Source of the DNA: Eledone cirrhosa
Taxonomy: Eukaryota
Reading direction: 5' to 3'
Assembly (NCBI GenBank): GCA_964016885.1
Contig: OZ024742.1
Span: 193,068,001-193,132,000, forward strand
Length of the DNA: 64,000 bases
Shown one piece after another: positions 1,311 to 60,158 of the stretch (positions are counted from its first letter, which is position 1; every line of letters begins with the position of its first letter). A program made the translations under genes and the position numbers. Under the pieces are notes generated by a model. That model was not told where the DNA came from, did not search any database, and was given only the letters and a program-made list of their open reading frames with translations.

Positions 1311-1417
1311 CACTTATATAAACCGATAGGGTGGGATTGCTGGGATATTTAGTAAAACTATTGTAAATGATTTAATATGGCACATTAATTTATTAGAACA
1401 TTATTAGATATATTTTG

Positions 1418-1597
1418 TAGATTGGCAGTATCGCTAGAGGGTCGGACGCCATGATTTGAGTTACGGCTCTTGCCATTCTGAGTTCAAATCCCGCCGAGGT
1501 TAAATTTGCCTTTCATCCTTACGGGGTCGATAAAATAAAGTACCAGTAATGTACTGGGTAATTGCTGGCCTTGTGCCAAAAGTAGAAATAATTATTA
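1418..1597 (+). mobile_element. tRNA-derived SINE, same family
   Basis: gagttcaaatcccgccgagg...tttcatccttacggggtcgataaa...gctggccttgtgccaaaagtagaaataattatt. Confidence 0.8.
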
Positions 1598-3537: not shown

Positions 3538-4230
3538 GTATTATGTTTATTTTTACAGTAAATACGAATTTTAACACAAATATATCAATGTTATTTTTAA
3601 TGTGTTCTTGCTAAATTAATACAGTTTGTCTGGACAACAAACACAACTTTATTTTGTCTGGAGCTATATTAAATATGCGCCGATATGGCTGAAACCTTAG
3701 GAGCGTCGGATAAAATACTTCACGGTATTCCAATCTGCTCTCTGTGCTGTATGAAATCCTACCAGTACTAGAATCGTGTTTCTTCTTCTTCTTCTTCTTC
3801 TTCTTGGGAGCGTCGCAGGGGCAGACTCATCAAGCATGACTTCCAAATGACCCGACTGAATCCTCAAACGAGACCAACCCTGCTTATGCATGTTATGCAA
3901 CCATCTTGTTTCTTATTAAGAAAATAATTTAATACAACATATTCATATAGTTGTCAGTGTTATAGAACATGGATAAAGGACATTTTCTAGGAGGTACACT
4001 TATCTTGTTTAGGATTAATGAAGCAATGATTGATGAAGCGAAGAAAGAAACGCTAAATGAATTGAGAAACCTAGGACAAAAGAAATAATAGAGAGATGAA
4101 ATCGGTTCTTGTCAAACCAGAAATAATGTAGGCACCCACGACTACATTAGGAAAATAGGGATATGTAACTAGCGATCAACTACAATTAATATCAATGACT
4201 GAACTTGTCTCTGGGAAAATAGGAAACAGA

Positions 4231-4393
4231 TTAAATCGACCCCAGGGAATTACTGGTGCTTTATTTTATCGACCCCGTAAGGATGAAAGGCAAAGCTAAC
4301 CTTGGCGGGATTTAAACTCAAATCGTAAAGAGGCGCAACTCTATGCTAGAAAGCATATTGTCGACGCTCTATCGATGCTGCAAATCTACCGCC
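4231..4393 (-). mobile_element. tRNA-derived SINE, same family
   Basis: Reverse complement of the core (ttatcgaccccgtaaggatgaaaggcaaag) and of the head (ctaccgcc). Confidence 0.75.
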
Positions 4394-5708: not shown

Positions 5709-5875
5709 AATAGGAACCAGTAAGACCCCGACAGCTGAGCTCAAGCCGTTTCGACGAACGGCTTGAGCTCAGCTGTCGGGGTCTTACTGGTTCCTATTAC
5801 CCACTCTACTACCTCAAGTATTGAGTACTTTGGTGCGTTATGGTCGACCTGGTTCCTTACCACATTTCCTTCGTT
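5709..5875 (+). repeat. Fold-back hairpin element, copy 1 (centre deleted), inserted in (TA)n
   Basis: Inverted arms of about 42 bp (5709-5798) plus an ~80-nt tail shared with the copies at 23721, 25836 and 59930. Confidence 0.85.
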
Positions 5876-5917
5876 ATATATATATGTATATATATATATA
5901 CACACACATATATATAG

Positions 5918-5948: not shown

Positions 5949-6237
5949 GATAATCTACCAAAATATACGGTAGTGTCCAATCCGTATGAAGAACTCAATG
6001 TAATCCAAATATCATGAAAAGAGAAGATGAATTCAAAAATTTTCGATAAAAATCATTGGAAAACAGAGGCAAGATAAATTAATAAAAAGAATGAAATAAA
6101 AACAAAGAACAAATTCCTCATATTAAAAATTCATCATTTTACGATCGTTTCTAGGATATATATGTGTGTTGGTATGTATATCATATGAACTTGTTCTTTG
6201 TTTTCATTTCATTGTTTTTATTAATTTATATACATAC

Positions 6238-6329
<92 letters not shown>

Positions 6330-6479
6330 ATACTTTGGGAGGGTCATGTTGCCAATAAGAAACACATGCACCAGTTGGTTTCACTTCAATTTATTATAAT
6401 AAATTTATAATAAATTTATAAATTTATAAATTTCTGGTTGGTTGGTTGGTTCCACAACCAGATAGTTGTTTATATATAT

Positions 6480-6524
6480 AGTCATAGTTCTTTCGTCACA
6501 CACTCTGTGACCTCTTCGGTGACT
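6480..6524 (-). ncRNA. Minimal type I hammerhead ribozyme motif in the family A pLTR
   Basis: agtca-CCGAAGA-ggtcac agagtgt gtgac-GAAA-gaac-UA-tgact; U4C core variant. Confidence 0.6.
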
Positions 6525-9130
6525 GGGGATTCCTTCTTTTGTTTCTGTGCCTCTCCTTTGTGCTGTCCTACGCCATTTTGTTTCTGTGTGTGTGTGTGTT
6601 GTGTGCTCAGTCTGCGCATGCGCCACATCCGGGTGTCTTTGTGTGTTTACGTTCATTTATTTATTTGTTTATTTACATGTTACTGGTTGGTTGTTTGTTC
6701 TATGTGTGTGTGTGTTTTCATTTTGTCCTTAATTGTAAGTTGTGATGTTGCTGTTCCACTCATATTTTTTATTTAATTTTGGTTGTAATTCTTTTATGTT
6801 TATTGCCTCTGTAATTTGTCTAAACATTGCGTCTTTTCTGTGTGTAGATTCTATTTTTATTTCTATGTTCTCTAATTTACCCTTGTGTTCTATTTTAGCA
6901 TGTTCGTAGAGTACATATGATTCTTTATTATCTTGAAGGTCTTGCCAGTGTTCATTTATCCGTTCCCCTACACTACGAGCTGTCTCACTTATGTACACTA
7001 TATTTTTGTCTCTACATTGTCCTTCAGTACATCTTATGCTATACACTACATTTCTACATTTACAGTTAATATGGGGGCTTATTTTACAGGTTATACATTT
7101 CTTATCTATACATGAGGGTCTTTGAAAAGGGTATGTCTTGCTAATAAGTGTTTTTATGGAGGTACCTGGTCTTTCTACTATCTTAATATTGAGTTTATGT
7201 TTATTTAGGGCCCTTCTAAATTTGTAAGCTAATTCACCTCTAGGGGTTGTATCGATGAACATTACACTCTGGTATTTATTGCTATCATACCATGAGTTTA
7301 TTCTATTAGCCTTCTTCCTAGTTCTTTCTATTCTATTCCAAAATTAGCTCCTATACAAGGGGCAGGTCCCATTTATGTCATTATTTACCATTTTTTCCCA
7401 TTTGGTTCTGGCTCCTCTATACACTCTGATTTTATCTCTCTGATTGTAGCCAGAGAACTGCATACGGTGGATGAAGTGTTGTATGTGTCTCTCTAGTTCT
7501 TCGGGGTTGCACATCGGGACACATTTCTCATCACCCGTACCAAATCCGCAATCAGTATGTTGATTTTGGTATGGTCCGAAACGGCCGAGTTTCGGTGGAT
7601 CAGATGTTTGGAAGTCATGGGTTTGGCATAATGGGAATGCAGGATTGTTTTTTGTTGTTAATGGTATCTAACCAGAGCTCTGTGTCTAGTACAGGTAATC
7701 GATGGTTGGGGTGTTTACTTGGGTAGTCTATAGTAACTCTAATGCTCTGGTGGATGGAGTTTGCTATTTGCTGGATGCTTTCCATTGTGTTTTTCTCTAC
7801 CTCCTGACTGTTCTCTAGTGGGGGTGTCTTAACTACGATGTTTATATCATCTACATAGCGGGAGTACATTATCAGGGTTAAGGGGTCTTCTAATTGTTCT
7901 TTAAATTTAAGTTTAAGTCTACTGTCCCACCATACCATGAATAAGTTAGCTATGTCGCCTGCAATTCTAACACAAATGGCTGCTCCTTCCTCTTGGGCAT
8001 ATGTTTTTACATTAAATTTGAACATATGTTCCTTAAGGGTTAGTTTTATGCTGGCCCCTACCGCATGTGCAATCATTTTCTTCAGTCCATCGTGGTTTTC
8101 GGGTGTCCGTATGGCTCTGGTCCACCCGTTCCATCTATCTGTGTGGGTTTTCTTGGCCATTGAGGTAATGGTAGGTGGTCTGCCTCTTGCTGGTCTTGTA
8201 GGGCACAGGTTGCTAAGGTCATATGTGTCTAGGTAATTATTACTATAGGTAAGCTTAAGTAGGAGTCCCAGCTCACTGGTATCAATCCCACGGAACTCAA
8301 CCTTGCTCTCACTGATCATTTCTACGCATTTCTCCACAGAGAAATCCACGTCAATAGATGGATACAGGGACACAACATCCATACTGCCTATTATGCAGTT
8401 TGTTAGGTCCCCAGATCGGTTACTCACGCCGATTCTGCTGAGGAGGTCCTCCGTGCTGTCACATACATCTGGGGACATTTCAATGATGGGGCGTATGATC
8501 AGGGAGAGGAAGTAGGACAGTCTGTAGTTACTAGCAATGTTAGCTCCACAGACTGGCCGTGTTGGTGGTCCCGCGACAGCGTCACAGCCCGTTTTATGGT
8601 ATTTTCGAAGCCCATACAACGCCAGCACGTCATTGTTCCAGGCCTGGAAGTTGTTGGCAGTCCTTTTGTTGGGCTGCATTATATTCGTCCACATCACCAT
8701 ATGGGCATTGCGGGCTTTTTCTCTATCCTCATGCTCTTGTGGTGTTGCCTCTCTTGTGTTAGTGATGTGGGGTTGCATTGCCTGGATGTAGTTTGGCAGG
8801 CTGTCAACCGACATTCTGCCAGACTTGTCTGTTGGAAAGCATGCTATCTCTCCATTACGTGAGCGCTGCATGAGCTTACGGAAAATAGAAAATATGAGTG
8901 GAACAGCAACATCAAAACTTACAATTAAGGACAAAATGAAAACACACACACACACATAGAACAAACAACCAACCAGTAACATGTAAATAAACAAATAAAT
9001 AAATGAACATAAACACACACAGACACCCGGATGTGGCGCATGCGCAGACTGAGCACACAACACACACAGAGAAACAAAATGGCGTAGGACAGAACAAAGG
9101 AGAGGCACAGAAACAAAGAAAGGAATCCCC

Positions 9131-9175
9131 AGTCACCGAAGAGGTCACAGAGTGTGTGACGAAAGAACTATGACT
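9131..9175 (+). ncRNA. Minimal type I hammerhead ribozyme motif in the inverted family A pLTR
   Basis: agtca-CCGAAGA-ggtcac...gtgac-GAAA-gaac-UA-tgact. Confidence 0.6.
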
Positions 9176-9393
9176 ATATATAAACAACTATATGGTTGTG
9201 GAACCAACAGACCAACCATAAATTTATAAATTTATAAATTTATGAATTTATTATAAATTTATTATAATAAATTGAAGTGAAAGCAACTGGTGCGTGTGTT
9301 TCTTATTGGCAACATGACCCTCCCAAAGTATAACAATATCGGTTTCAACACACGATTTCAGATAAAGAATCTTGCTAAACAAATTCAGAAACG

Positions 9394-9524
<131 letters not shown>

Positions 9525-11970: not shown

Positions 11971-12025
<55 letters not shown>

Positions 12026-13074
12026 CCAGAAATAGCCATCGAAATGCCTTCGTGGCCATATTTTTCCTATATATATATATGTATATACAAACATAAATTA
12101 TCGAGATTCGCATTCCGGCCCACGAAATAACGAAAAACAACCTCCGAGATGTGCGGCAAGTGCTAAATGATTCAGATGAACCAGAGCTATAACAAACCTT
12201 AAAGGCCAAACACACTGAGACGATGGTTAAACAATCATTCGCATAGCCAAAAAAACGATCAAGTAATTCGGGTATTGAAAATTTCCTCGGACCCGTGGAG
12301 GGTTGGTAAAATCCAGTATATGGGTTTCTGAGGCTCCTAAATCAAGTACCGTCCGCTTACATAAATTATTTCAGGCTTCTGGTAAGATGATTGAACAAGG
12401 AAGCCACTTTCTCAACAACAGGTTTTAGTTCAATGTTAATACAAGGACTGACTATTGCTGACCCCACGTGGGGATCGGCAAGGGAGGCAACCCCTATATC
12501 AGGGGACAGAATTCAGTTATATATATATATATATATATATGGCTTTTGAAATTGTTTTTCTTATCTGAAAATGTGTTTTGAAACATATATTGCTATACTT
12601 TGGGAGTGACATATAACAATATATTCAAATATCTCTATACATATACGTGTTGCATGTGCGTCTGTCTGCATGTGTGTGTGTGAATGTATATTTGTGCGAG
12701 TGGGTGTGTGAGTATGTGTGTATATACATAATTAACCTTTACATTAACCAGTTTCGCTCTGCCTAGCTTTTCAAAGTTTCGTTTTGGTTTGGTTTGGTGC
12801 TGAACATATTTTCCTCATAAAGTTATGTAGGTGCCGTGTTGGGTATATCCTTCACCTAGTGCTATTTGTCACCTATGTTTTTCCAAAAACAAGGGACGCA
12901 ACTGATTGCATCTTTGTTGCCGTTTATGACAAAAAGAATTAACATCCATAACTATGAATTTGCACAGTAAAGTGTGCATTTAATTCATCAGAGATAAACC
13001 AGAGTTACGCCCCTCGTCACGAATTGCACAGATTTGTTTAGTTTTATAAAATTTAGATTGTCAACTCTCCCCCC

Positions 13075-21059: not shown

Positions 21060-21379
21060 ATAAATGATTTAAACATAACTTTGTTTCATGTAATCTCTCT
21101 CTATATATATATATATATGGACGGCGTACTGGGTCTACAATTATGAGGTTGTAAGTTCAACATACAGAGCGGAGATAATTTTTAATGATGCTCCAGTTCA
21201 ATCAGCTGAAAAAATCTGTTGCGATGCGAGGCCACTATACCTTCAACAAAGACACCATAGGGCGAATCATTTTTAATTATATACCATCACTAAATATATA
21301 TACTTTATGTATTGCATTGAATTCTCTTTTGTCTTTTTTCGCAATGTAGCAATTATCAGTAATTGTATATATATATGTA

Positions 21380-21456
<77 letters not shown>

Positions 21457-21462
<6 letters not shown>

Positions 21463-22977
21463 ATAGATGAATACTATTCCTCTATTTCACCCGAAACCCT
21501 GCATAAGGCCCTCTCTTTCGCTAAGACTAACTCGGACCTCACAAACGAGGAAATTAATATTATACTTGAAGCTAGACGCACAGTAGTGCACTTTGAAAAT
21601 AGTTATTGGGTCCGCAGGGATAGACCCTCGGAATTCGACATTACGATGGGTTCTAATGATTCGGCGGAGGTCACGGATTTGGTTGGGATCTATATAGCCC
21701 ATAGACTCCAGAACGAATTTACGGACCTCCACGGCGGAATATACCGCGACGATACACTTCTATTAGTCAGGAATATGAACAAACAAAACCTAGAAAGGCG
21801 ACGTAAAAACATTAGGAAACTTTTCTTAGAACTAGGGCTTAATATTACCTTTGAACACAATCTTAAGGTGGTCAACTTCTTGGATGTCACCTTCAACCTT
21901 AATAACGGTAATATAGAGCCATTTCACAAACTTAATGAAAATCTTAAGTACGTTAATGTAAAATCGAACCATCCTCATTCCATTATTAAATCTATCCCTA
22001 AAAATATAGCCATAACGATCTCCCGACTGTCGTCTAATTTGCAGACCTTCAACGAGCATGCTGAATATTATAATGACGCACTTAGAAAAGCTGGTTACTG
22101 CGAGAAAATTGAATATCTAGAGGATAACCACATAAGTACTAGGAATAAAACACATCTAAGTCGAACTAGTATTGCACCACACACACACATCAATAGGCAT
22201 ACTAACAGGTGCAAACCAGCAAATAGAGTCAGACGTAGAGAGTACATATGGTATAACCCCGTGTACAATTCTTCTATTAGCACTAAGATTATCTCACAAT
22301 TCTATACACTAATCAATAAACACTTTACAACTTCACATAAATACTATAAAATCTTTAACTCGCGCACCATTAGACTCTCATACTCCACTGCACCTAACAT
22401 AGAACAACTAATTAGAAAACTCAACTCAGCAATACTGAATAAGTACATCCCTAATGACTCAGCGCACCAGCATAGCAACATACAACGCACTAACACGCAA
22501 CCACAACCCCACCAAACTATCCAGGATTCTACTGCAAAACATAAAAATAGTTGTAACTGCACCAAACCAGGTACGTGCCCACTGAATAACCAGTGCCTAG
22601 CACGCAATATTGTCTACCAGTGTACAATAAATTCCGGGACCAACAAATGGTATTACGTAGGATGTACCGCAACTTCTTTCAAGGCTCGCCTATACCAACA
22701 TCGATCTTCGATCAGGCACGAGAAAATGCGCTCCGTAACAACTCTCGCCGAGAAAGCCTGGCAGCTTCGGAGGAACAATCAAGCGTTCTCCCTTGATTGG
22801 CAAATTATTGCAGCTGCGCCTGCATATCAGCAAAATCATCGATTCTGCAAGTTATGCAATTTAGAGATATACTGCATTTTAACGTCGGTAAACAAACTTT
22901 TGAACAGCAAAATTGAACGTTCTCTATATTGTAACCATCGTTTGAAAACGACTTTTTCTTTTTTTAAATGCATATAA
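21457..22977 (+). CDS. Naiad-like PLE RT/GIY-YIG polyprotein, C-terminal ~506 aa
   Basis: Uninterrupted reading frame with RT and GIY-YIG motifs; the upstream part of the called ORF (21307-21456) is microsatellite. Confidence 0.8.
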
Positions 22978-23387
22978 TGTTACATTTTTACACCAACGTT
23001 TGCAAATTTCTGTCTTATATATTTATACACTAGATATGGCTTTCTATAATAATAGTACTAAACACTGTTTTTCTGGACCCCTTTAGAAATAACCTGCTAC
23101 TATAATAGCCCTAATAACTTGTCTGTGACACTGTACTACTTTGACCCCTCTAACTAAATGTTGTCCGAATAACACCACTAGAAGAATCTACTTCCTAGCC
23201 AACCTTTTCACGCCTCATTAAGCTAACTGCTGCCAAAACATTCTCTCTTCACATTCTCTACTAGTCTGACAGTCTTAAACCCTAAGACTCCCTCCACCTT
23301 ACTCACTTCCCTCTACCCCTTCTCTTCCTACCTCCTTCTTTATCTTTTATCTAGTGTATAAACTATTTTCATATCATTCTAATACAA

Positions 23388-23720: not shown

Positions 23721-23724
<4 letters not shown>

Positions 23725-23910
23725 AGTAAGTAAGACCCCGACGGCTGAGCTCAAGCCGTTTCGACGGCTAATTCTGTGGAATTAGCCGTCGAAACGGCTT
23801 GAGCTCAGGCGTCGGGGTCTTACTTACTCCAATTACCCACTCTACTACCATAAGTATTGAGTCTTTGGTGCGTTATGGTCCACCTGGTTCCTTACCACTT
23901 TTCCCTCGCT
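23721..23910 (+). repeat. Fold-back hairpin element, copy 2
   Basis: ggagtaagtaagacccc...gacggctaattc tgtg gaattagccgtc...ggggtcttacttactcc plus shared tail; (TA)n flanks. Confidence 0.85.
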
Positions 23911-24137
23911 ATATATATATATATATATATATAAATACCACATTTGCTCTACGGTTCTTATATTTTTTATATATATTTATCCTTATCGAGCCCTCTTTGG
24001 ATTTTAGTCTTCAAATTTATTAATATTACTATATATATATATAGTACCAGTAATGCACTGGTTAATTGCTGGCCTTGTGCCAAAAGTAGAAACAATTATT
24101 ACTATATATATATATGTGTGTGTGTATGTATGTATCT

Positions 24138-24859: not shown

Positions 24860-25125
24860 CTTATGATGCATACATATATACATACATATATGTATGTATG
24901 TCTAGATGTGGGATATATTCCAGAGTGCAGATAAATATATTAATGATTGATAAGCATAAATAATTGATAAATCGGATGGATATATATATATATATATCCG
25001 ATTTAACTATTAATTATGGTTATCAATCATATATCAATATATTTATCTGCACTCTGGAATATATCCCCATCTAAACATACATATATATATGTATGTATGT
25101 ATGTATACACTACATGGGTTATAAT
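24855..25125. repeat. Fold-back inverted repeat (MITE-like) with a (TA)n loop
   Basis: gatatattccagagtgcagataaatatatt...atcgga versus ccgattt...aatatatttatctgcactctggaatatatc; arms about 120 bp. Confidence 0.75.
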
Positions 25126-25758: not shown

Positions 25759-25835
<77 letters not shown>

Positions 25836-25839
<4 letters not shown>

Positions 25840-26030
25840 AACGAGTAGGACCCCGGCGGCTGAGCTCAAGCCGTTTCGACGGCTAATTCTGGATCCGGAA
25901 TTAGCCGTCGAAACGGCTTGAGCTCATCCGTCGGGGTCCTACTCGTTCCTATTACCCACTCTAATACCCCAAGTATTGAGTACTTTGGTGCGTTATGGTC
26001 CACCTGGTTCCTTACCACATTTCTTCCGTT
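25836..26030 (+). repeat. Fold-back hairpin element, copy 3
   Basis: Near-perfect palindrome 25835-25952 centred on attctggatccggaatt, plus shared tail. Confidence 0.88.
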
Positions 26031-26454
26031 ATATATATATATATATATATATTGGTTCGTGAAGACGTTCCCTGGCAATGAACGGAAAAAAAAGCGAGGA
26101 CAATACGTCGTTATGTGGATCGGGAAGAACAATTTCATGCAAAGACAAGACCAAGTTTATGGTATAAATGGAGTCGTTAGACTAATATTCTATTTAAAAT
26201 ATCAGAATGATTTCCAGCCCCGGAGTTTAAGAATGATGTAAATAAAATTGAAAACGAAAATGACAGAGGTTATTAAATAGTAAAAGTAAATAGTGAAGAT
26301 TTAGGCAAGTACATACGTATGCCCCAACGAACACATACATACGCACACACAAATACATACACACCCGCAAACATACACACACACACGCGCGCGTACGTAT
26401 AAACCTTATGCATTTCTCCAGTATTTTCACCAAACTTAAGACATAGGTTACTTA

Positions 26455-28857: not shown

Positions 28858-29178
28858 ATAATATAAGATCAAAAGATGGTTAAAGGAGTTCCATATATTT
28901 TATTATGCGCATTTCAGAAACAAACATCATCAAACAATAATATTTGTGTTTTCATCAGATAAAACAGGAGAACATGATATGAAGGCTAAAAAACACTTGT
29001 TGATAGTGCAGTTATGATATGTTGATTTAAAACTGCACTATCAACAAGTGTTTTTTAGCCTTCATATCGTGTTCTCCTGTTTTATCTGATGAAAACACAA
29101 ATATTATTGTTTGATGATGTTTGTTTTTGAAATGCGCATAATAAAATATATGGAACTCCTTTAACCATCTTTTGATCT

Positions 29179-29188
<10 letters not shown>
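28858..29188. repeat. Near-perfect fold-back (~155-bp arms) carrying mirrored hammerheads
   Basis: 28858-29013 is the inverse of ~29032-29188 with only a few mismatches. Confidence 0.9.
29080..29146 (+). ncRNA. Minimal type I hammerhead motif (mirror copy at 28898-28964 on -)
   Basis: ttttat-CTGATGA-aaacacaaatattatt gttt gatgatgtttgttttt-GAAA-tgcgca-UA-ataaaa. Confidence 0.8.
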
Positions 29189-30118: not shown

Positions 30119-33413
<3,295 letters not shown>

Positions 33414-34202: not shown

Positions 34203-34837
34203 TTTAAGTCGTTTGGAAGCTTCGACATTGCAAATGGGTAAATCTCCGGGTAACAAGATCTGGTGGTGGAGAGAGAGATGTAAGTGGGTGTACGTTTAGA
34301 TGCGTGGTGTGTATAAGACTGCAACGTGTAGAGGAATGAACGAAAGAGCGTAAAGGATGAAAATAAAAATAACAACACGAGAAAGTGTTACCTTGGGAGA
34401 GATTTAATTGTCTCTATATATTTCGGATTCACATACATCAACTGGGGGTTTTTTCTGGGGGGGGGGGGGTTGTCTGTAGGAAAGGTGCGAAACGTGTCCT
34501 CCGCTGTTCGTTGTTATGAATATTTGAAAACAAGATATTCAAAACAACGAACAGCGGAGGACACGTTTCGCACCTTTCCGACAGACAACACCCCCCCCCC
34601 CACCGGAAAAAATCCCAGTTGATGGATTGAATCCGAAATATATAGGGACAATTAAATCTCTCCGAAGGTAACTCTTTCTTGTGTTGTTATTTTTATTTTT
34701 ATCCTTTACGCTCTTTCCTTCATTCCTCTACACGTTACAGTCTTATACACGCCACGCATCTCAACGTACACCCACTTACATCTCTCTCTCCACCACCGGA
34801 GATTTACCCATCTGCATTGTCGAGGCTTCCAAACGAC

Positions 34838-34841
<4 letters not shown>
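34203..34841. repeat. Fold-back with ~310-bp arms, probably a PLE pLTR remnant
   Basis: 34203-34515 is the inverse of ~34543-34841; flanked by (TA)n. Confidence 0.8.
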
Positions 34842-34908: not shown

Positions 34909-37900
34909 AGTTCGAAAAAGATTGTTTTGGTAAAAACAGGAGTAAGCAGGAGAAAGCTCTCAACAATCGTTGTTTTTAGTTACGATGGAGAATTTTATAT
35001 AAATAACAAAATAAGATGCTGAGGTTACATATATCGTTTAATCATAATAATTATTTCCACAGTTCTCCATGCAATCGAGATTTCCTTCAGGCATTTGCTG
35101 TTGATTATGAGAACGGTTTCCTCAGTTGAAATTCGATATATTTGATATGTCTCTGGCAGGAAAACACACGTCCTAATGCATCTGCGCCCAGCATACATAT
35201 GAGTTCCTTGAAAGGTTTGCCAGCCGTCGTGTTTGTTAGAAAAAGCTATCAACGAAAACAGACGAAAAGAACGAAGAACTGTGTGCAGCCAAAACCCTGT
35301 AGACAGTTGAAATAATAAATGGAGCTCTGAAGGAGGTGGGGTATATATTTAGTTGACAGCCACCTATAGACAACAACAACAACAACAACAACAACAGCAG
35401 CAACAGCAACAACAACAACAACAACAACTACAATAACAACAATGACAATAACATCAAACCCCCGAACAAAGTTGTCCACACTGGTCGCAATAGTCGTGTT
35501 GATACCACCACCCTATTGACAACAAGAACTAAAGCATCAGTAAAACACTTAGAACGACAACAACAGCAAACAGACTGACCAGCGTCTTGTATACAGGTCG
35601 CAGTCGTCGTAGTGATGGGTACCACGCTGTCGACCATAAATAGCGATAACGCCAAAGCAATAAAAAGGAGTTCAGAGGTAGGTGGGTACACAGAGTTGGT
35701 GGTATCAATTACCATGACCATATATAGTAACAACAACAATGGCAACGGCAACAAGCACCAACACCGCCCATCACCCACCCCGTTTGTCGCCGTAGTAGTG
35801 GTATCATCTATGCCAGTATTAAGCCATTGGTAACACCACCAGCACCAACAACAACAACACCAGTGATTACCCCCACCACGGCGACGGCGGCAACAAGAAA
35901 AAGCGACGCTTCCATGAAAAATAAACTATCTACAATAGTAGTCCGTTGAAACAAGGAAGTGAAAATGGGATAGAAAACATAGATGTGTATTTATATATAT
36001 AAACAAATACATTCCCAGTTAATACAATATTCTCTATCATTGTAAGGCACAAGGCCAGCAATGATCATAGCATTCAGTATCAACTACAGTGGAAACAATA
36101 CTATCAAAAGGGCTGTTAGGCCATAGAAGTGAGTTACGGGAAGCGAAAGTAGCGACAGGAACAAATAGAAGAAACGAAAACACAGAAAACACAATAAAAA
36201 AAGAACGGGACAAAAATAAATAAAAAAAACACAATTGGTATAAAAAACAGAGGAATAGGGAACAAAGGACAAGACACATGTACACATAGAGACTCCAGGT
36301 GTGCAAACAAGTTATCCAAGGTTCTCCTGAGGCTGAGATTGCTGCGTGGCCATGCCCGACTTCCACGAACAAGCTTGCACAGTTCCTCAACTAGCACAAC
36401 TACGTTGTTAGTTTGTACAGTTTGAGGAAGGTTCCAGAAGGTCTGTGGAGGCAGTTTCTGAAGCGGTTATTCCTTTTATTTATAACTTGAGCTCCCTTAT
36501 TTCATAATCTCGGTGACACACAAATCGCACGACTCATGTCTATGCGCTCTGTAGGGTTGGGCCGAGGCTACTTTGGGCCCCGACAAGGTGATTTTTACGT
36601 CATTATGTTTGAGACGCCACACTAGTTCCGAGAGGGCGGTGTTGTGTTTCTTATCAATTCTCTTAAAGGTGTGAAAGTGATTGTACCAGTGTTCCTTAAA
36701 ACTATTAGCTATGGCTCCGATATAGGTGAAGATATGGTTGTTGGTATTCACCCTACATTCGTTTACTAAGCCACAGCGGAGGCACCTACACTACAGGGGG
36801 AAGTTACTGGGGTTTCTACAATTACAGCTCGGAGGGGTGTTGCCACCCAGATCTCCGGATCACGTTGTATGGCTCACCATACAAGATGTTACCAACAGAT
36901 GTTACCAAAAGAGGAAGAGGTATTTGCGTGGTGCGTCTCCTCACAGTTGCTGTTTCCCCTGGAGTTGCGGACTTTTTTTTTAAATCTACTGCGGTTCAAG
37001 GCTTCTATATTATGTGCTAGGTTTCCAGTTGTGGAGTAGGACAATTTAATCGTGAGCCTGTTGAAGATGGCGTGGTACCGGTATTGCTTATGGAAGTGCT
37101 TATCCAAATCCCTGAAGAAAGAGGTCGCTATGTTGTTGCGGAAACCAGTGCAGAGGGGGGGGGGGTTAAACCAAATGACATTACGGGAATGGGTTCACTT
37201 CTTGTGTAGTCACCAGTCCTTGCACCTGTACCGTCAGAGTATGTGTTACGTACTCGCCGTGGACGTCTGGAAGAGGTATGCCCTCCAATTCGTCGCTGCC
37301 CGTGGGGTTGGTTAAGCCGATCGGACCACCCCGAGCTGAGTGGTCTACATTCATAGAGAGCGAGGTGGTTTGTACGTTACACGCTCACTCCCGGGCCCAC
37401 ACATGTCCCCTGCGGCTCCACGGCGTCGGCTTCCCTGTTTTCCAAAGTAGGCGAGGTCCAGTCTCTTCCTAATAAGCCATGGTTAGCAGTTCCTCCGGGA
37501 TTATTCTGTCGTGTAGTATCAGGGATGAGTAATGAAGTCCTAGTCATGTTCGTCCCGTCGTTGTTTCCTACTGATGCGTTACTGTCAGCGGTAACGTAAT
37601 TCATTAGACTGGGTATAAACTTAATTTCTACCCTGTAACCTGCATTACTAAGGGCATTATTATAGTAGCTAGCTACGATATTGAATGTTTCCTGGCTAGC
37701 TGACAGAGAAGAAATCCTACGGGATACAATATTAACTAGGGCCCTCCTGACTGACCCGGGATGGTTGGTGTTGGCATTTACGTACTTGAGGCCCTCATTC
37801 GGCTTGTGGTACGGGTAGTAGAGGCCGGATTCTAGATTGGGGGTAACTTCTAGGAAGTTGACGACCTTTCTATTATTTTCTACGTCTATGCTGAGACCTA

Positions 37901-40100
37901 GATTTTTGAAAAATTTAATTAAGCTCATTCTAGTCCTTTTTATCACGCTGTTGCTGTGGTCGAGAAGCGTAAATAACGCATCGTCGCGGTATATTCCACC
38001 GCCTAACGATGGGATCTCGCTTGTCAGGTTCCTGAGGATGTAGAGGCCCACCAGGTCAGTAATCTCCGCCGAGTCGCCCGATCCCATCGTGATGTCAAAA
38101 TTGTCAGGCCACTCTCTCCTAGTCCAGAGCTCACCGTCGAAATCTATCAGTGTCTTCCTGGTAGTATGAATAATGTTAATTTCATCACTGGTTAAATCAG
38201 TATGCCTGTGTGCAAACATCAGTGCCTTGTTAAGTACCATCGGCGATATGGATGCATAATAATTTACATATATCTAGCTGTATAAAATTGGTCCTACCTT
38301 TGCACTGCAGGCCGTTAAACTACTCAACCACTTCCCCCGTTCTGGACCATTGCTGTAATTGGATCTTTTTTCTAAGGGTTGGTTTGAGTCTGTCTAGTAT
38401 TTTCTTGCTAATACACCCGATGTCAGACTTAGATGGTACTATAAGTCTGACTGGGAGTTCCGTTCCGAAGTTCGGTTTGTGAGCCTTCAGCAATATACGG
38501 GGTTCTCTGAGTTGGTAAGGCCCGGTCCTATCCGCAATACTGAGTTTATTCACTATTCTATTAGTCCGCTCGTTAATGTCCTCATGGTTATCCTGTGTGG
38601 TTTTTCTGTAATTCTTTCTAAGTTTCTTAAGTATTAGTTTTCTATAAGTTCCTGCATCCAAGTTGTAGAAGTTACCCGTGTTATCCGCATGAACGAGAAT
38701 TCTTTCTGCGAGTTTTAGTTCAGAGATCCTATTCGCTAGTTTCCTGAGGTGAGGTTGCTCCTCAGATGTGAACCTATTGAATTTGACGCGTGAAATAATG
38801 TTGGCCATCTCTTTGTTTTGCGGTGGGTTTTTTTCTAGATTTAAAACCGAACGAAGAATCCGGGATGCCAGTGTTCACATCATTCGTAGGGGTTTTCTTA
38901 TCACAGTGGAAGGCCTTCCATCGCATTCTGCGTACAAACAAGTCTGTGTTAAGGATTAGCTTTCTGATGTACTACTTTTTGCTGTGTTAGGGAATGTCCT
39001 ACAGGGACTCGGACATGTTAGAAGATTGCACCCTATTTTCCGCTGCTTATTCTCAAAGTGCTCAACAGTGTTTGGGCTGTATGTTTTCGGAAAAGATTGT
39101 ATTGGTAAAAAGAGGTGTAAGCAGGAGAAAGCTCTAAACAATCGTTGTTTTTAGTTACGATGGAGAATTTTATAAAAATAACAAAATAAGGCGCTGTGGT
39201 TACATATATCGTTTAATCATAACAATTATTTCCACGGTTCTCCATGCAATCGAGATGTCCTTCAGGCATTTGCTGTTGATTATGAGTACGGTTTCCTCAG
39301 ATGAAAACCGATATATATGCTATGTCGCTGGCAGGAAAACACACATCCTAATGCCTATGCGTCCAGCATACATATGAGTTCCTTGTAGGGTTTGCCAGCC
39401 GTCGTGTTTGTTAGAAAAAGCTATAAACGATCAAAGATGAAAATAAATCCTTTTTATTGCTTTGGTGTTATCGCTCTTTACGGTTACAGGGTGGTACCGT
39501 CACTGCGACGACTGAGACCTGTATACACGACGCTGGTCTGTGTTTTTGCTGTTGTTGTCGTTATAAGTGTTTTACTGTAGCTCATGCTTTAGTTGTTCTT
39601 ATTAATAGGGTGGTGGTATCAACAGAACTATTGCGACCAGTGTGGACAACTTTGGTCGGGGGTTTAATGTTATTGTCATTGTTGCTGTTGTAGTTGTAGT
39701 TGTTGTTTTTATTGTTGTTGTTGTTGTTGTAGTTGTTGTCTATAGGTGATTGTCAACTAAATATATACCCCACCTCCTTCAGAGCTCCATTTATCGCTTC
39801 AACTGTCTACAGGGTTTTGGCTGCACACAGTTCTTCGTTCTTTTCGTCTATTTTCGTTGGTAGCTTTTTCTAACAAACACGACGACTGGCAAACCTTTCA
39901 AGGAACTCATATGTATGCTGGGCGCACACGCATTAGGGCGTGTCTTTTCCTGCCAGAGACATATCAAATATATCGAATTTCAACTGAAGAAACCGTTCTC
40001 ATAATCAACAGCAAATGTCTCGATGGCATGGAGAACTGTGGAAATAATTATTATGATTAAATGATATATGTAAACTCAGCATCTTATTTTGTTATTTTTA
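34908..40100 (-). mobile_element. Penelope-like element family C2 (Naiad-like), near full-length but decayed; direct pLTRs (34908-35250, 39085-39430) and an inverted pLTR (~39440-40100)
   Basis: ADNTGNFY, LKAHKPNF...PVRLIVPSKSDIG, FDITMGS, YRDD, NHP, SCNCR, YIG, CDLC across broken ORFs 36497-39141. HHR motifs (tcat-CTGAGGA...GAAA-taattg-UU-atga type) at 35042-35129 (-), 39217-39304 (-) and 39980-40056 (+). Confidence 0.88.
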
Positions 40101-44060: not shown

Positions 44061-45473
44061 TCTATACAAGACCACACAACAACAGGTGAAATACCATTAG
44101 ATATAATAATACCATTGAAAAAACATTCCAGAAAAATCATTTTTAGACCAAGGCTACAGGGCTCACGACACCCGGTGGCACAAACCGATTTTGAAAAACC
44201 GAAAATAATTAACCTTTCAAATACAAACCTCTCAGAAATAGAAAAATCATTTACAAAACTACGCTGGAGCCTCAAAAACAAAAACAAAAACAAAAGCAAC
44301 AATATACGCACACACATATACAACACACATCCCAACAACAACAGACACACAGACACAAACAACAATAACAACAACACACACACCAACAACAACAACAATA
44401 ACAACATACCCAGAAACAACAACAACAGACACGCAGACACAAACAACAATAACAACACACACAACAACAATAACACAGACAGAGACAACAGCAACACACA
44501 TCAACAACAGCACACATCAACAACAACAACACACACGCATTCAATGCCTCTCACCACCACCACAATCTTAACAAACACACAGACACAGAAAACAAGTAAT
44601 GACAGTAGCACAGAAATCACAGAAATAAGGGAAAGTAATAGGATTAAAAAGAGAAGGGAGACTAAGGACAAAGAGAATAACCAAGACGAACACACAGACA
44701 CACAAAATAGGGTAGATAACAACAATGAGCCAGCGGAAAGAGACAGGAGTAATTATGAGAGACATAGAAACAACCATGAGGCTGTTGGTGGAAATAGAAA
44801 TAGAAACAACACAACTAACAATAATAATAGCACTCGTACACATAAAGCAGCAGCCTGGAACTCTACGTTTTATAATCCCGCCGATAAATCATTCGACCTG
44901 CGACGAGTCCACGCCATGACTTTACCATTTAACAAACGCACGCAATTGCCGTCGCAGGTCGATGAACAAACAGAAGCACAATTTAGTATAGCTAGATCCG
45001 AACTTAGAAATATTATAGAACAGTATAGCAAGAAGCATGATAGAATGGAGGCCCAGCAACTGGGAGAAAAATCTGCAAATGGCTTGCGTAAGCTAATGCA
45101 GCGCTCACGTAATGGAGAGATAGCATGCTTTCCAACAGACAAGTCTGGCAGAATGTCGGTTGACAGCCTGCAAAACTACATCCAGGCAATGCAACCCCAC
45201 ATCACTAACACAAGAGAGGTAACACCACAGGAGCATGAGGATAGAGAAAAAAGCCCTCAATGCCCATATGGTGATGTGGACGAATATAATGCAGCCCAAC
45301 AAAAGGACTGCCAACTACTTCCAGGCCTGGAACAATGACGTGCCGGCGTTGTATGGGCTTCGAAAAAACCATAAAACGGGCTGGGACCAACACGGCCAGT
45401 CTGTGGAGCTAACATTGCTAGTAACAACAGACTGTCCTACTTCCTCTCCCTGATCATACGCCCCATCATTGAA

Positions 45474-47225
45474 ATGTCCCCAGATGTATGTGACAGCACG
45501 GAGAACCTCCTCAGCAGAATCGGCGTGAGTAACCGATCTGGGGACCTAACCAACTGCATAATAGGCAGTATGGATGTTGTGTCCCTGTATCCATCTATTG
45601 ACGTGGATTTTGCTGTGGAGAAGTGCGTAGAAATGATCAGTGAGAGCAAGGTTGAGTTCCGTGGGATTGATACCAGTGAGCTGGGACTCCTACTTAAGCT
45701 TACCTATAGTAATAATTACCTAGACACATATGACCTTAGCAACCTGTGCCCTAAAAGACCAGCAAGAGGCAGACCACCTACCATTACCTCAATGGCCAAG
45801 AAAACCCACGCAGATAGATGGAACGGGTGGACCAGAGCCATACGGACACCCGAAAACCACGATAAACTGAAGAAAATGATTGCACATGCGGTAGGGGCCA
45901 GCATAAAACTAACCCTTAAGGAACATATGTTCAAATTTAATGGAAAAACATATGCCCAAGAGGAAGGAGCAGCCATTGGTGTTAGCATTGCAGGCGACAT
46001 AGCTAACTTATTCATGGTATGGTGGGACAGTAGACTTAAACTTAAACTTAAAGAACAATTAGAAGACCCCTTAACCCTGATAATGTACTCCCACTACGTA
46101 GATGATATAAACATCGTAGTTAAGACATCCCCACTAGAGAACAGTCAGGAACAAGAGAAAAACACAATGGAAAGCATCCAGCAAATAGCAAACTCCATCC
46201 ACCAGAGCATTAGAGTTACTATAGACTACCCAAGTAAACACCCCAACCATCGATTACCTGTACTAGACACAGAGCTCTGGTTAGATACCATTAACAACAA
46301 AAAACAAATCCTCCATTCCCATTATGCCAAACCCATAACTTCCAAACATCTGATCCACCGAAACTCGGCAGTTTCGGACCATACCAAAATCAACATACTG
46401 ATTGCGGATTTGGTACGGGTGATGAGAAATGTGTCCCGCATGTGCAACCCCGAAGAACTAGAGAGACACATACAACACTTCATCCACCGTATGCAGTTCT
46501 CTGGCTACAATCAGAGAGATAAAATCAGAGTGTATAGAGGAGCCAGAACCAAATGGGAAAAAATGGTAAATAATGAGATAAATGGGACCTGCCCATTGTA
46601 TAGGAGCAAATTCTGGAATAGAATAGAAAGAACTAGGAACAAGGCTAATAGAATAAACTCATGGTATGATAGCAATAAATACCAGAGTGTAATGTTCATC
46701 GATACAACCCCTAGAGGTGATTTAGCTTATAAATGTAGAAGGGCCCTAAATAAACATAAACCCAATATTAAGATAGTAGAAAGACCAGGTACCTCCGTAA
46801 AAACACTTATTATCAAGACATACCCTTTTCAAAGACACTCATGTATAGATAAGAAATGTATAACCTGTAAAATAAGCCCCCATATTAACTGTAAAACTAG
46901 AAATGTAGTGTATAGCATAAGATGTACTGAAGGACAATGTAGAGACAAGAATATAGTGTACATAGGTGAGGCAGCTCGTAGTGTAGGGGAACGAATAAAT
47001 GAACACTGGCGAGACCTTCAAGATAATAAAGAATCATCTGTACTCTACCAACATGCTAAAATAGAACACAAGAGTAAATTAGAGAACATAGAAATAAAAA
47101 TAGAATCTACACACAGAAAAGACGCAATGTTTAGACAAATTACAGAGGCTATAAACATAAAAGAATTACAACCAAAATTAAATAGAAAATATGAGTGGAA
47201 CAGCAACATCACAACTTACAATTAA
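45474..47225 (+). CDS. PLE reverse transcriptase/GIY-YIG endonuclease (C-terminal 583 aa of a frameshifted ORF)
   Basis: GSMDVVSLYPSID, GAAIG, YVDDI, LPVLD, C....C..C, NVVYSIRC, YIGEAARS...R..EH, RQITEA..I...LN motifs. Confidence 0.85.
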   Translation: MSPDVCDSTENLLSRIGVSNRSGDLTNCIIGSMDVVSLYPSIDVDFAVEKCVEMISESKVEFRGIDTSELGLLLKLTYSNNYLDTYDLSNLCPKRPARGRPPTITSMAKKTHADRWNGWTRAIRTPENHDKLKKMIAHAVGASIKLTLKEHMFKFNGKTYAQEEGAAIGVSIAGDIANLFMVWWDSRLKLKLKEQLEDPLTLIMYSHYVDDINIVVKTSPLENSQEQEKNTMESIQQIANSIHQSIRVTIDYPSKHPNHRLPVLDTELWLDTINNKKQILHSHYAKPITSKHLIHRNSAVSDHTKINILIADLVRVMRNVSRMCNPEELERHIQHFIHRMQFSGYNQRDKIRVYRGARTKWEKMVNNEINGTCPLYRSKFWNRIERTRNKANRINSWYDSNKYQSVMFIDTTPRGDLAYKCRRALNKHKPNIKIVERPGTSVKTLIIKTYPFQRHSCIDKKCITCKISPHINCKTRNVVYSIRCTEGQCRDKNIVYIGEAARSVGERINEHWRDLQDNKESSVLYQHAKIEHKSKLENIEIKIESTHRKDAMFRQITEAINIKELQPKLNRKYEWNSNITTYN

Positions 47226-47425
47226 GGACAAAATGAAAACACACACACACATAGAACAAACAACCAACCAGTAACATGTAAATAAACAAATAAATAAATG
47301 AACATAAACACACACAAACACCCGGATGTGGCGCATGCGCAGACTGAGCACATAACACACACACAGAAACAAAATGGCGTAGGACAGAACAAAGGAGAGG
47401 CACAGAAACAAAGAAAGGAATCCCC

Positions 47426-47470
47426 AGTCACTGAAGATGTCACAGAGTGTGTGACGAAAGAACTATGACT
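47426..47470 (+). ncRNA. Minimal hammerhead motif, family A pLTR (second copy at 48130-48174)
   Basis: agtca-CTGAAGA-tgtcac agagtgt gtgac-GAAA-gaac-UA-tgact. Confidence 0.7.
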
Positions 47471-47678
47471 ATATATAAACAACTATCTGGTTGTGGACCC
47501 AACCAACTAACCAAACATTTTTAAATTTGTAAATTTATAAATATATAATAAATTGAAATGAAGTAACTGGTGCGTGTGTTTCTTATTGGCAACATGACCC
47601 TCCCAAAGTATAGCAATATCGGTTTCAACACACGATTTCAGATAAAGAAACTTGCTAAACAAATTCAGAAAGGAAATA

Positions 47679-47719
<41 letters not shown>

Positions 47720-48377
47720 AGATTTGAATGGATACAGTTTAGTTGAAAGGAATTTATTGACACGTGTTTCTATAACAGTTACATAACCTAAAACAGCTGC
47801 TATCTACAAACTTTTAGTTATGCAGACATAATGTTTAGACAAATTACAGAGGCTATAAACATAAAAGAATTACAACCAAAATTAAATAGAAAATATGAGT
47901 GGAACAGCAACATCACAACTTACAATTAAGGACAAAATGAAAACACACACACACATAGAACAAACAAACAACCAGTAACATGTAAATAAACAAATAAATA
48001 AATGAACATAAACACACACAAACACCCGGATGTTGCGCATGCGCAGACTGAGCACATAACACACACACAGAAACAAAATGGCGTAGGACAGAACAAAGGA
48101 GAGGCACAGAAACAAAGAAAGGAATCCCCAGTCACTGAAGATGTCACAGAGTGTGTGACGAAAGAACTATGACTATATATAAACAACTATCTGGTTGTGG
48201 ACCCGACCAACTAACCAAACATTTTTAAATTTGTAAATTTATAAATATATAATAAATTGAAATGAAGTAACTGGTGCGTGTGTTTCTTATTGGCAACATG
48301 ACCCTCCCAAAGTATAACAATATCGGTTTCAACACACGATTTCAGATAAAGAAACTTGCTAAACAAATTCAGAAAGG

Positions 48378-48427
<50 letters not shown>

Positions 48428-49143
48428 AGATTTGAATGGATACAGTTTAGTTGAAAGGAATTTATTGACACGTGTTTCTATAACAGTTACATAACCTAAA
48501 ACAGCTGCTATCTACAAACTTTTAGTTATGCAGACATAATGTTTAGACAAATTACAGAGGCTATAAACATAAAAGAATTACAACCAAAATTAAATAGAAA
48601 ATATGAGTGGAACAGCAACATCACAACTTACAATTAAGGACAAAATGAAAACACACACACACATAGAACAAACAACCAACCAGTAACATGTTACTGGTTG
48701 GTTGTTTATTCTATGTGTGTGTGTGTTTTCATTTTGTCCTTAATTGTAAGTTGTGATGTTGCTGTTCCACTCATATTTTCTATTTAATTTTGGTTGTAAT
48801 TCTTTTATGTTTATAGCCTCTGTAATTTGTCTAAACATTATGTCTGCATAACTAAAAGTTTGTAGATAGCAGCTGTTTTAGGTTATGTAACTGTTATAGA
48901 AACACGTGTCAATAAATTCCTTTCAACTAAACTGTATCCATTCAAATCTTTCTATATATATATATATATATATATACATATATATTTCCTTTCTGAATTT
49001 GTTTAGCAAGTTTCTTTATCTGAAATCGTGTGTTGAAACCGATATTGTTATACTTTGGGAGGGTCATGTTGCCAATAAGAAACACACGCACCAGTTACTT
49101 CATTTCAATTTATTATATATTTATAAATTTACAACGGAAAATA

Positions 49144-50700: not shown

Positions 50701-50867
50701 TAACACCAAAGAATCGCTGCTTTCACCCTCTTTAAGTAAAGAATCGCAGCTTTCACTAATTCTCTTACTGGTAATTGAGTAATATAAAATATTACCCTTA
50801 TCTTATTTATAACTATATATAGATTATATATATAAGAATACATATTATTATTATTATTGATTTTTGA

Positions 50868-59929: not shown

Positions 59930-60109
59930 AACCCGACGGCAGAGCTCAAACCGTTTCGACGGCTAATTCTGGGTCCAGAAATAGCCGTCGAAACGGCTTG
60001 ACCTCTGCCGTCGGGGTTAAACATTTTCCCATTCCCCACTCTACTGCCCTAAGTATTGAGTACTCTGGTGCGTTATGGTCCATCTGGTTCCTTACCACAC
60101 TTCCTTCGT

Positions 60110-60110
<1 letters not shown>
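59930..60110 (+). repeat. Fold-back hairpin element, copy 4
   Basis: aacccgacggcagagctc...ggctaattctgg gt ccagaaatagcc...tctgccgtcggggtt plus shared tail. Confidence 0.85.

Positions 60111-60158
<48 letters not shown>

What the first reader, a model, noticed from the sequence alone, without database searches (positions are those of the whole stretch)
25836..26030. Four-copy hairpin family that folds back at the stem II position of a half-hammerhead, with arms covarying per copy
Seen in the copies at 23721, 25836 and 59930 (centre deleted in 5709): the right arm reads ...gaattagccgtc-GAAA-cggc(loop)gccg-UC-gggg, i.e. stem II, GAAA, stem III and a GUC site. The CUGANGA half is replaced by a mirror image of the downstream sequence. 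Copy-specific variants appear in both arms (gaaccagtaag/cttactggttc; gagtaagtaag/cttacttactc; gaacgagtagg/cctactcgttc; ggcagag/ctctgcc). Inference: the left arm is re-made from the right arm at each insertion (cDNA snap-back at the ribozyme hairpin priming second-strand synthesis) or homogenised afterwards. This would be a mechanistic clue to PLE inverted ends, or a hairpin-ended mini-element.
Basis: partly seen in the sequence, partly recalled or inferred. Interest (0 to 1): 0.8.

Follow-up and report, generated by a model that had tools for sequence, protein, structure and literature searches.

The report
Head-to-head Penelope stubs reveal RNA ends
These four DNA hairpins are short end-pieces of a very abundant Penelope-like jumping gene, likely made when two separately primed DNA copies run off the start of the element's RNA and join head to head, and a rarer class that ends exactly at the predicted ribozyme cut suggests the ribozyme really cuts that RNA in the animal.

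Summary
The hairpins are real; at least 13,000 exact tips exist genome-wide. They are insertions of only the 3' end of a Hydra-type Penelope-like element. An intact parent has a 718-aa RT-endonuclease ORF and a hammerhead with a U3:A8 core (UUGANAA), which is why CUGANGA searches fail. The 'copy-specific' variants are subfamily markers, but both arms do share them per locus. Simple snap-back at the ribozyme is not favoured. One arm always ends at +42 and the other carries a tail to +119 (G12 = 0). Either arm can be the longer (33:32). In subfamily C both arms often reach -17 with 0-1 base between. Long copies have arms differing by up to 2.7 kb. This fits twin priming with run-off at an RNA 5' end (-17/-18, an Initiator-like motif inside stem-loop II, likely the transcription start). 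A second class (376 tips) ends exactly at the predicted cleavage site. The layout is known for PLEs, and this scan has already noted twin priming and twin start hairpins on other DNA. I did not find the two mapped RNA ends in the papers searched.

The parts
25835..25893 (-). Tail-less arm (element positions +42 to -16, G12 of GAAA = 0), inferred cDNA primed from the left (TA)n end
25894..25952 (+). Tail-bearing arm, positions -16 to +42: 3' strand of stem II, GAAA (G12 at 25910), stem III with palindromic loop, GUC (predicted cut between 25932 and 25933), 3' strand of stem I
25890..25899 (.). Head-to-head junction; both arms end at -16 with no inserted base (one later substitution)
25953..26032 (+). 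One-sided tail (+43 to +119/+122); in the parent it runs on into the leader and ORF
25958..25981 (+). Bulged hairpin 1 (4 bp, 2-nt bulge, 4 bp in intact parents; one substitution here) just beyond the +42 end; a same-shaped hairpin follows the +119/+122 end in the parent only
23723..23911 (+). Second copy, another subfamily, arms end at about -15 and -12
59930..60112 (+). Third copy, subfamily A, arms end at -15 and -17, left arm short at its outer end
5710..5877 (+). Fourth copy, subfamily B2, junction at about -4/+2
12024..12070 (+). Decayed single tail-less arm beginning at -17 beside (TA)n, no hairpin

Best explanation
The hairpins are insertions of only the 3' end of a Hydra-type Penelope-like retrotransposon, likely formed by twin priming: both cut ends of a (TA)n target each prime a DNA copy of the element's RNA, and the two copies likely run off the RNA's 5' end and join head to head. 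SHOWN: the parent (3118-bp unit, 718-aa RT + GIY-YIG ORF, U3:A8 hammerhead); two fixed outer ends (+42 and +119/+122), one per arm; a same-shaped bulged hairpin 4-6 nt beyond each; a sharp inner wall at -17/-18 in three subfamilies; a minor second wall exactly at G+23. INFERRED: the hairpins set the two RT start sites; the -17/-18 wall is a physical RNA 5' end, most likely the transcription start of the pLTR promoter (the A of TTAGTCC, TCAGTCC or TTAGTTC, an Initiator-like YYANWYY, consensus recalled); such an RNA carries only the 3' half of the ribozyme at its 5' end and so cannot cut itself there in cis; the +23 wall is the 5' end of ribozyme-cut RNA; joining uses 0 to a few non-templated bases or microhomology. 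Arms share subfamily markers because both copy the same RNA, or RNA of the same locus, not because one is copied from the other. My odds: PLE-end origin 0.97, two primed cDNAs 0.7, -18 is an RNA 5' end 0.7, that end is a TSS 0.55, +23 reflects ribozyme cleavage 0.8.
For: Parent: (L381); tail continues into leader and ORF, ATG at about +213. One tail per hairpin in 82 of 83 pairs; tail arm longer 33, tail-less arm longer 32, equal 13. Wall: 47 of 66 arms end 9-25 nt upstream of G12, 2 of 66 at 26-60, 12 beyond 60, 5 shorter; longer-arm mode -17 in 27 of 78; single arms start at -17/-18 directly on (TA)n with no hairpin (L309, L315); 6 of 30 ORF-bearing 5' ends stop at -14 to -18. Subfamily C: both arms reach -17 with 0-1 nt between in 24 of 50 listed tips (hand count); in 21 such tips oriented to the tail the centre is A 12, T 5, none 4. 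Long inverted pairs: unpaired interior 0 in 4, 87-359 nt in 5, 861-2707 nt in 10, 1 complex, of 20; tail-less arm longer in 8, tailed arm in 5 of 13 resolved. About 13 of 54 unpaired arms are joined to a tail-side piece that stops early (read by eye). Second wall: 376 tips; both arms end at G+23 with 0-9 non-templated bases in 39 of 50 listed (hand count); in a wider window the longer arm ends at +23 in 30 of 50, short of it in 13, beyond in 6, 1 other (hand count); 15 of 15 loci checked have one tail. Twin bulged hairpins. Literature: PAc cuts and extends both strands and has two internal RT start sites that bound the tail (PMC11167929); PLE transcription starts lie in the pLTR (PMC2377424; PMC8557442); R2 RT template jumping needs non-templated addition (PMC8857657 abstract).
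Against: No RNA data, so the -18 end is not shown to be a TSS; the Initiator consensus is short and degenerate, and a TATA-like motif about 30 nt upstream appears in subfamilies A and B but not C. In 10 of 11 direct-tandem loci the upstream unit begins again at or inside the wall, which a structural RT stall would also give. In subfamilies A and B most tips are asymmetric (longer arm -17/-18, shorter -12 to -15) and fit a 4-6 nt snap-back loop equally well. Asymmetric copies could be later one-sided deletions of palindromes. 23 of the first 100 parent cores listed have C3 with A8, a mismatch (hand count), and PAc insertion in vitro did not need ribozyme activity. Part of the sample was chosen by a tip pattern, which requires both arms to reach -12. 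The sequence likeness of the two start hairpins is weak (7-154 of 500 shuffles score as high across 7 loci), and hairpin 1 was the lowest-energy fold of its 58-nt stretch in only 1 of 7 loci.
Confidence: 0.65

Rival explanations
1. Single cDNA with snap-back: one cDNA primed at +119 stalls in stem-loop II, folds back, copies itself, and the endonuclease opens the hairpin at +42 on either strand, giving both tip orientations.
For: Asymmetric A/B tips can be drawn as 4-6 nt loops; arms share subfamily in 46 of 49 exactly typed pairs; self-priming and EN resolution of the tail were proposed before (PMC3846280; PMC8557442).
Against: Loop-less tips in 24 of 50 subfamily C cases and at +23; 'loops' of 0.9-2.7 kb in 10 of 20 long pairs; a start-like hairpin beside +42 as well as +119; the wall is seen without any hairpin.
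Confidence: 0.15
2. Twin priming is right, but the -17/-18 wall is an RT stall or an RNA processing site in the distal part of stem II rather than a transcription start.
For: Subfamily A folds a distal helix spanning -14 to -20; direct-tandem second units stop at the wall again in 10 of 11 loci; poly-T abuts the wall in L158, L180 and L129, as if RT slipped on the U run upstream.
Against: The wall keeps its position although the distal helix differs among subfamilies; stalls normally fall at the foot of a helix, not inside it (general knowledge); subfamily C junctions at -17 carry the same 0-1 nt signature as those at the +23 cut end.
Confidence: 0.25
3. An independent hairpin mini-element (SINE- or MITE-like) that is copied whole, with arms kept alike by gene conversion.
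For: Very high copy number (14 loci in 440 kb); some tips re-create an Initiator-like motif, so some stubs might be transcribed; one locus holds three tandem single arms (L309).
Against: Tips are not inherited: they differ among near-identical copies and come in both orientations; no side-specific lineages (between-locus distances 5.08 and 5.74 same side, 5.42 opposite side); most subfamilies have long ORF-linked arms; stubs lack the second start hairpin, which lies in the leader.
Confidence: 0.05

Closest known systems
Insertions of endonuclease-bearing Penelope-like elements with an inverted 5'-truncated copy and a one-sided tail (PMC8557442 Fig. 2 legend; PMC3846280; PMC2377424)
   Same: Head-to-head inverted copy, palindromic junction, tail on one arm only, partial tandems forming a pLTR, microsatellite target.
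   Different: Tail is about 80 nt, not 30-40; most insertions stop at one fixed wall and are only about 195 bp; a second wall lies at the ribozyme cut; those papers explain the inversion by self-priming or EN resolution.
Hydra clade PLEs, including Hydra-1_Obim (PMC8557442 section 11 and supplement)
   Same: Single ORF with C-terminal GIY-YIG, KNIP and RW(K/R), DKT, GLYRDD, CxCx5C, CxxC and CxH motifs, (TA)n target.
   Different: A separate family: its hammerhead has a U3:A8 core, a 4-bp-plus stem III with a 9-nt palindromic loop and a long stem II, unlike every Hydra HHR listed in File S2; unit 3.1 kb; no tree was built.
PAc (Anolis Poseidon) in vitro system (PMC11167929)
   Same: Both target strands extended; two internal RT start sites bound the tail; start sites lie just 3' of the hammerhead near the ORF start.
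   Different: That paper does not explain inverted ends in the parts I read, found the ribozyme dispensable in vitro and saw no RNA-seq ends at the cut site; here genomic junctions pile up at the predicted cut.
U3-A8 hammerhead variants (Schistosoma Cercyon PLE, PMC4209133; PMC3088659)
   Same: C3-G8 replaced by U3-A8, type I topology, PLE pLTR location, palindromic loop III.
   Different: Long two-part stem II holding the inferred RNA start; some lineages carry C3 with A8.
L1 twin priming (Ostertag and Kazazian 2001; recalled, not read)
   Same: Both target ends prime a cDNA and the two are joined by microhomology, giving an inversion.
   Different: L1 copies non-overlapping parts of the RNA from a poly(A) start and a random internal start; here both starts are fixed and the cDNAs overlap, giving a palindrome.

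Membership tests
EN+ Penelope-like element (parent) | Single ORF with RT and C-terminal GIY-YIG endonuclease | tested here: met
   718-aa ORF in L381 with YRDD and a C-terminal VIYQC..AYIG region; Pfam gives only a weak GIY-YIG hit on a fragment, E 0.069, and none on the whole protein; 2216 relatives of about 700 aa, unnamed
EN+ Penelope-like element (parent) | pLTR by partial tandem, inverted 5'-truncated copy, one-sided tail | tested here: met
   L381, L091, L105 and 20 long pairs; 82 of 83 short pairs with one tail
Hydra clade | RWK motif and DKT in place of DKG | tested here: met
   KRLRWRTFF (RWR variant) and HSDKTGN against section 11 and Hydra-1_Obim
Hydra clade | CxCx5C linker; CxxC and CxH in the EN | tested here: met
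   CNCPDRSIC, CNLC, CKH
Hydra clade | CCHH motif absent from the EN | not tested
   no alignment to CCHH-bearing ENs was made
Hydra clade | Insertion in (TA)n | tested here: met
Hydra clade | Canonical (C3-G8) hammerhead, reported as universal in the clade | tested here: not met
   core UUGANAA; position 8 is A in 100 of 100 listed; so filed as Hydra-type by protein motifs with a variant ribozyme
Hydra clade | Placement inside the clade on an RT tree | not tested
   reference proteins were seen only in the paper's supplement and were not brought into a tree
Type I hammerhead ribozyme (parent copy) | Core U4 G5 A6 N7 A9, G12 A13 A14, A15.1-U16.1, H17, with a 3-8 pair | tested here: met
   U3:A8 in 77 of 100 listed, N7 takes all four bases (hand count); C3 with A8 in 23
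Type I hammerhead ribozyme (parent copy) | Three helices with covariation | tested here: met
   lowest-energy fold gives the three-way junction for L062 and L381, not for L235; 95.3% of cells paired and 3 stem II pairs change on both sides in 27 rows balanced over subfamilies; these reflect few events between subfamilies, and the unbalanced 43-row set was not significant
Type I hammerhead ribozyme (parent copy) | Self-cleavage after GUC | not testable with these tools
   indirect only: junction peak at G+23 and 5-6 of 11 direct tandems ending at C+22
Type I hammerhead ribozyme (window copies) | 5' half of the core present | tested here: not met
   window copies begin at -17 or later and fold as a plain hairpin; no Rfam hammerhead hit in the window
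Non-autonomous mini-element, retrozyme or MITE | Unit copied whole with inherited internal structure | tested here: not met
   tips re-made, both orientations, no side lineages

The most novel reading that the evidence does not exclude
This PLE replicates in an LTR-like way. Transcription starts inside the ribozyme's stem-loop II, so the 5' copy is a dead half-ribozyme while the whole 3' copy cuts at +22, giving an RNA with a 40-nt terminal repeat (-18 to +22). Because the start hairpin for +119 exists only before the ORF, cDNAs begin near the RNA 5' end, run off as 'strong-stop' DNA and must jump to the 3' repeat to copy the ORF. That jump would regenerate pLTRs and partial tandems, and the roughly 10^5 genomic stubs would be failed transfers. 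One locus (L369) shows a tailed strong-stop piece joined through 4 extra bases to a long 3' UTR ending exactly at C+22.
Probability: 0.3. Interest if true: 0.82.

Novelty: new variant of a known kind. Interest (0 to 1): 0.6.

Why it matters
How Penelope-like elements integrate, why they form inverted ends and pLTRs, and what their hammerheads do are stated as open in PMC8557442, PMC2377424 and PMC11167929. This family supplies tens of thousands of natural insertion products with base-exact ends. They predict two RT start sites, a transcript 5' end inside the ribozyme and an in vivo cut site, and an intact ORF exists for a direct in vitro test. If the stubs are failed strand transfers, PLEs would link target-primed and LTR-type replication. 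The family is also a large source of perfect 55-bp hairpins in the genome, relevant to double-stranded RNA and editing if they are transcribed (not tested).

Tried and rejected
Canonical parent: CTGANGA joined to stem II gave 0 matches; a looser pattern gave 47, and the 30 inspected were one-off junctions or hairpin tips. Rfam: no hammerhead, only below-threshold miRNA-like hits. Splice acceptor at the AG before -16: rejected because the next base beyond -17 is even (A 9, C 9, G 9), so no constant upstream exon follows. Cap-templated C: not supported at -17 and not assessable at -18. One pattern for the tail-to-leader junction found nothing and was replaced by a DNA search. One search used a mis-registered structure string and is void; one search is the corrected count. 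A third tip class (579) centres on the palindromic loop III or the stem III repeat and has no extra bases; it is homology-driven and says nothing about RNA ends. Assembly artefact: rejected from arm-specific mutations, varied tips and fixed one-sided tails. Literature searches found no description of this family, of twin priming or strong-stop transfer in PLEs, or of genomic junctions at a PLE hammerhead cut; most subscription papers, Repbase/Dfam entries and bioRxiv supplements are outside the library and may hold it.

Full report
Numbering. Element positions are given relative to G12 of the hammerhead GAAA (= 0; window 25910 in the named copy). Counts marked 'hand count' were read by eye from the first rows that a search listed.

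Observation. The four copies are present. Each is (TA)n, a left arm, a right arm, an 80-nt tail that the finding does not mention, and (TA)n. The genome is 3.0 Gb; from its repeats I take it to be octopus-like, which is an inference. The family is abundant: 40,175 exact core arms, 13,000 exact hairpin tips in subfamilies A and B, 1,186 in subfamily C, reversed controls 0. In 44 stretches of 10 kb chosen without regard to the element there were 14 loci, 8 of them inverted pairs, which extrapolates to the order of 10^5 loci.

Parent. Canonical CTGANGA parents do not exist as a family. Long tips gave the upstream sequence, and 2,349 matches extend the right arm into a 3' UTR and a PLE ORF. L381 holds an intact 718-aa ORF in a 3118-bp unit, with a partial tandem and an inverted copy. 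Its motifs are those listed for the Hydra clade (PMC8557442 section 11; supplement). Upstream of stem II the parent reads CCCC-UUGANAA-G: 6,586 matches; position 8 is A in 100 of 100 listed, position 7 takes all four bases, position 3 is U in 77 and C in 23 (hand count). U3-A8 is a known natural core variant (PMC3088659) and occurs in a Schistosoma PLE (PMC4209133). The parent region folds as a type I hammerhead in two of three parents folded, and three stem II pairs change on both sides between subfamilies (27 rows); an unbalanced 43-row set did not beat its shuffles. The tail is not a 3' appendage: it continues into a leader and the ATG at about +213.

Arm co-variation. In 74 pairs the two arms of a locus differ by 2.11 positions, shuffled partners by 5.37; same-side and opposite-side distances between loci are alike (5.08, 5.74, 5.42), so there are no left or right lineages (16 of 90 pairs were dropped for lacking one tail, being long or being too short). 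Of 49 pairs typed exactly in both arms, 46 agree and 3 differ. The shared variants are subfamily markers, most also found on long arms. Tips differ among 30 copies that are 95-100% identical and come as reverse-complement pairs.

How it is made. One arm ends at +42 and the other at +119/+122 (82 of 83 pairs have exactly one tail; end sequences). The longer arm at the tip is the tailed one in 33, the tail-less one in 32, equal in 13 (this set mixes random stretches, core-pattern loci, tip-pattern loci and the window). In 20 long inverted pairs the unpaired interior is 0 in 4, 87-359 nt in 5, 861-2707 nt in 10, and one locus is complex; the tail-less arm is the longer in 8 and the tailed arm in 5 of 13 resolved. 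In subfamily C both arms reach -17 with 0-1 nt between in 24 of 50 tips (hand count), with either A or T at the centre and in more than one sub-lineage. About 13 of 54 unpaired arms are joined to a tail-side piece that stops early. A single cDNA folding back explains these only with extra steps; two cDNAs, one from each cut target end, explain them directly. In vitro, PAc extends both strands and starts at two internal sites bounding the tail (PMC11167929). Following a lead from earlier scan notes, I found a bulged hairpin of the same shape beginning at +48 and at +126; support is by shape more than by sequence score. The second lies in the leader, so priming at +119 would need the copy that precedes the ORF.

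The wall. Of 66 arms from random and core-pattern loci, 47 end 9-25 nt upstream of G12, 2 at 26-60, 12 beyond 60 and 5 shorter; the longer arm peaks at -17 (27 of 78). The wall appears without hairpins (L309, L315) and at the 5' ends of ORF-bearing copies (6 of 30 stop at -14 to -18, 11 run on into an upstream UTR, 1 stops near -27, 12 stop further downstream or are unresolved). Position -18 is the A of an Initiator-like motif kept in all three subfamilies (consensus recalled), and PLE transcription starts lie in the pLTR. I read it as the RNA 5' end, probably the transcription start. Against this: no RNA data, most A/B tips are asymmetric, and in 10 of 11 direct-tandem loci the second unit begins at or inside the wall again, which a stall would also give.

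The ribozyme cut. There are 376 palindromes whose arms reach the GGGG after GUC; in 39 of 50 listed both arms end exactly at G+23 with 0-9 non-templated bases (11 of these have none and are ambiguous by one base; hand count). In a wider control window the longer arm ends at +23 in 30 of 50, short of it in 13, beyond it in 6, with 1 other (hand count; reversed control 8 of 461). All 15 loci inspected have the usual one-sided tail. In direct tandems the upstream unit ends at C+22 in 5 or 6 of 11 loci, and at +26 to +31 in the rest, three of them near a second GTC, which weakens that count. These junctions are indirect evidence that the U3:A8 ribozyme cuts in vivo, on a minority of templates, and they show what run-off from a true RNA end looks like: the same 0-1 nt joint as at -17 in subfamily C.

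Comparison and novelty. Inverted truncated copies, palindromic junctions and one-sided tails are known for PLEs, as are the Hydra clade and U3-A8 cores. What I did not find in the searches is this family, twin priming for PLEs, an RNA end inside the ribozyme, or junctions at the cut site. This scan has already noted twin priming and twin start hairpins for other PLE insertions, some in the same genome; a look-up by sequence found nothing. Those notes are not counted as support.

What I saw of each paper. PMC8557442: outline, passages, sections 10 and 11, supplement part 2 and supplement passages. PMC11167929: parts 1 and 2 of 4 (main text and start of methods); supplements not seen. PMC4209133, PMC3088659, PMC2377424, PMC3846280, PMC13282606, PMC5625713: passages only. 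PMC8857657: abstract and outline. bioRxiv 10.64898/2026.07.22.740005: part 1 of 5; supplements closed. L1 twin priming and retroviral strong-stop transfer: recalled. Unseen supplements or repeat libraries (for example that of PMC13282606) may list this family under another name.

Verdict. A real, very common product of a Hydra-type PLE; a new variant of a known kind. The value lies in the base-exact ends, which make the integration mechanism and the role of the ribozyme testable. Interest 0.6.

Noticed in passing
window 48231-49134, 32172-32604, 28861-29183, 34204-34841, 58953-59378, 24903-25073, 57604-57674, 6074-6229: Other long fold-backs, several beside (TA)n or PLE ORFs, probably inverted ends of other PLE families; 28861-29183 carries a whole canonical hammerhead core at about 29086-29156.
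   Followed up: no
window 45084-49134 and 6325-9396: Two copies of another PLE family (DKS motif, RT + GIY-YIG, 616-aa frame at 45375-47225) with tandem and inverted ends.
   Followed up: no
window 21277-22977 (+) and 37377-38874 (-): Further PLE ORFs with Hydra-like motifs; the 3' UTR at about 23300-23370 is the same sequence found joined to an arm of the studied family in L192, a cross-family junction.
   Followed up: partly
window 61153-61213: Canonical minimal hammerhead (CUGAAGA ... GAAA) inside an inverted pair 60838-61255.
   Followed up: no
window 1-138: Two tandem 61-nt units of (TA)n plus a reverse-strand piece resembling the family's tail end.
   Followed up: no
L031, L038, L052, L057: Arms joined at their 5' end to the same foreign repeat, suggesting jumps onto another element's RNA or cDNA (the search favoured this breakpoint).
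   Followed up: no
L158, L180, L129: Runs of T directly upstream of the wall, as if RT slipped on or tailed at the template end.
   Followed up: no
L226, L227, L232 and listed matches: A minority of cores read UUGANGA (U3 with G8) and one CUGAGGA, possible intermediates between C3-G8 and U3-A8; this lineage also mixes C-type and A-type stem II strands.
   Followed up: no
listed matches: Tips at the ribozyme cut are dominated by the GTAAG-type (B2/B3/B4) subfamilies, hinting at different cleavage rates among subfamilies.
   Followed up: no
window 1066-1597, 4229-4393, 24044-24101, 50843-51065, 56662-56986: A dispersed SINE-like repeat in several copies.
   Followed up: no
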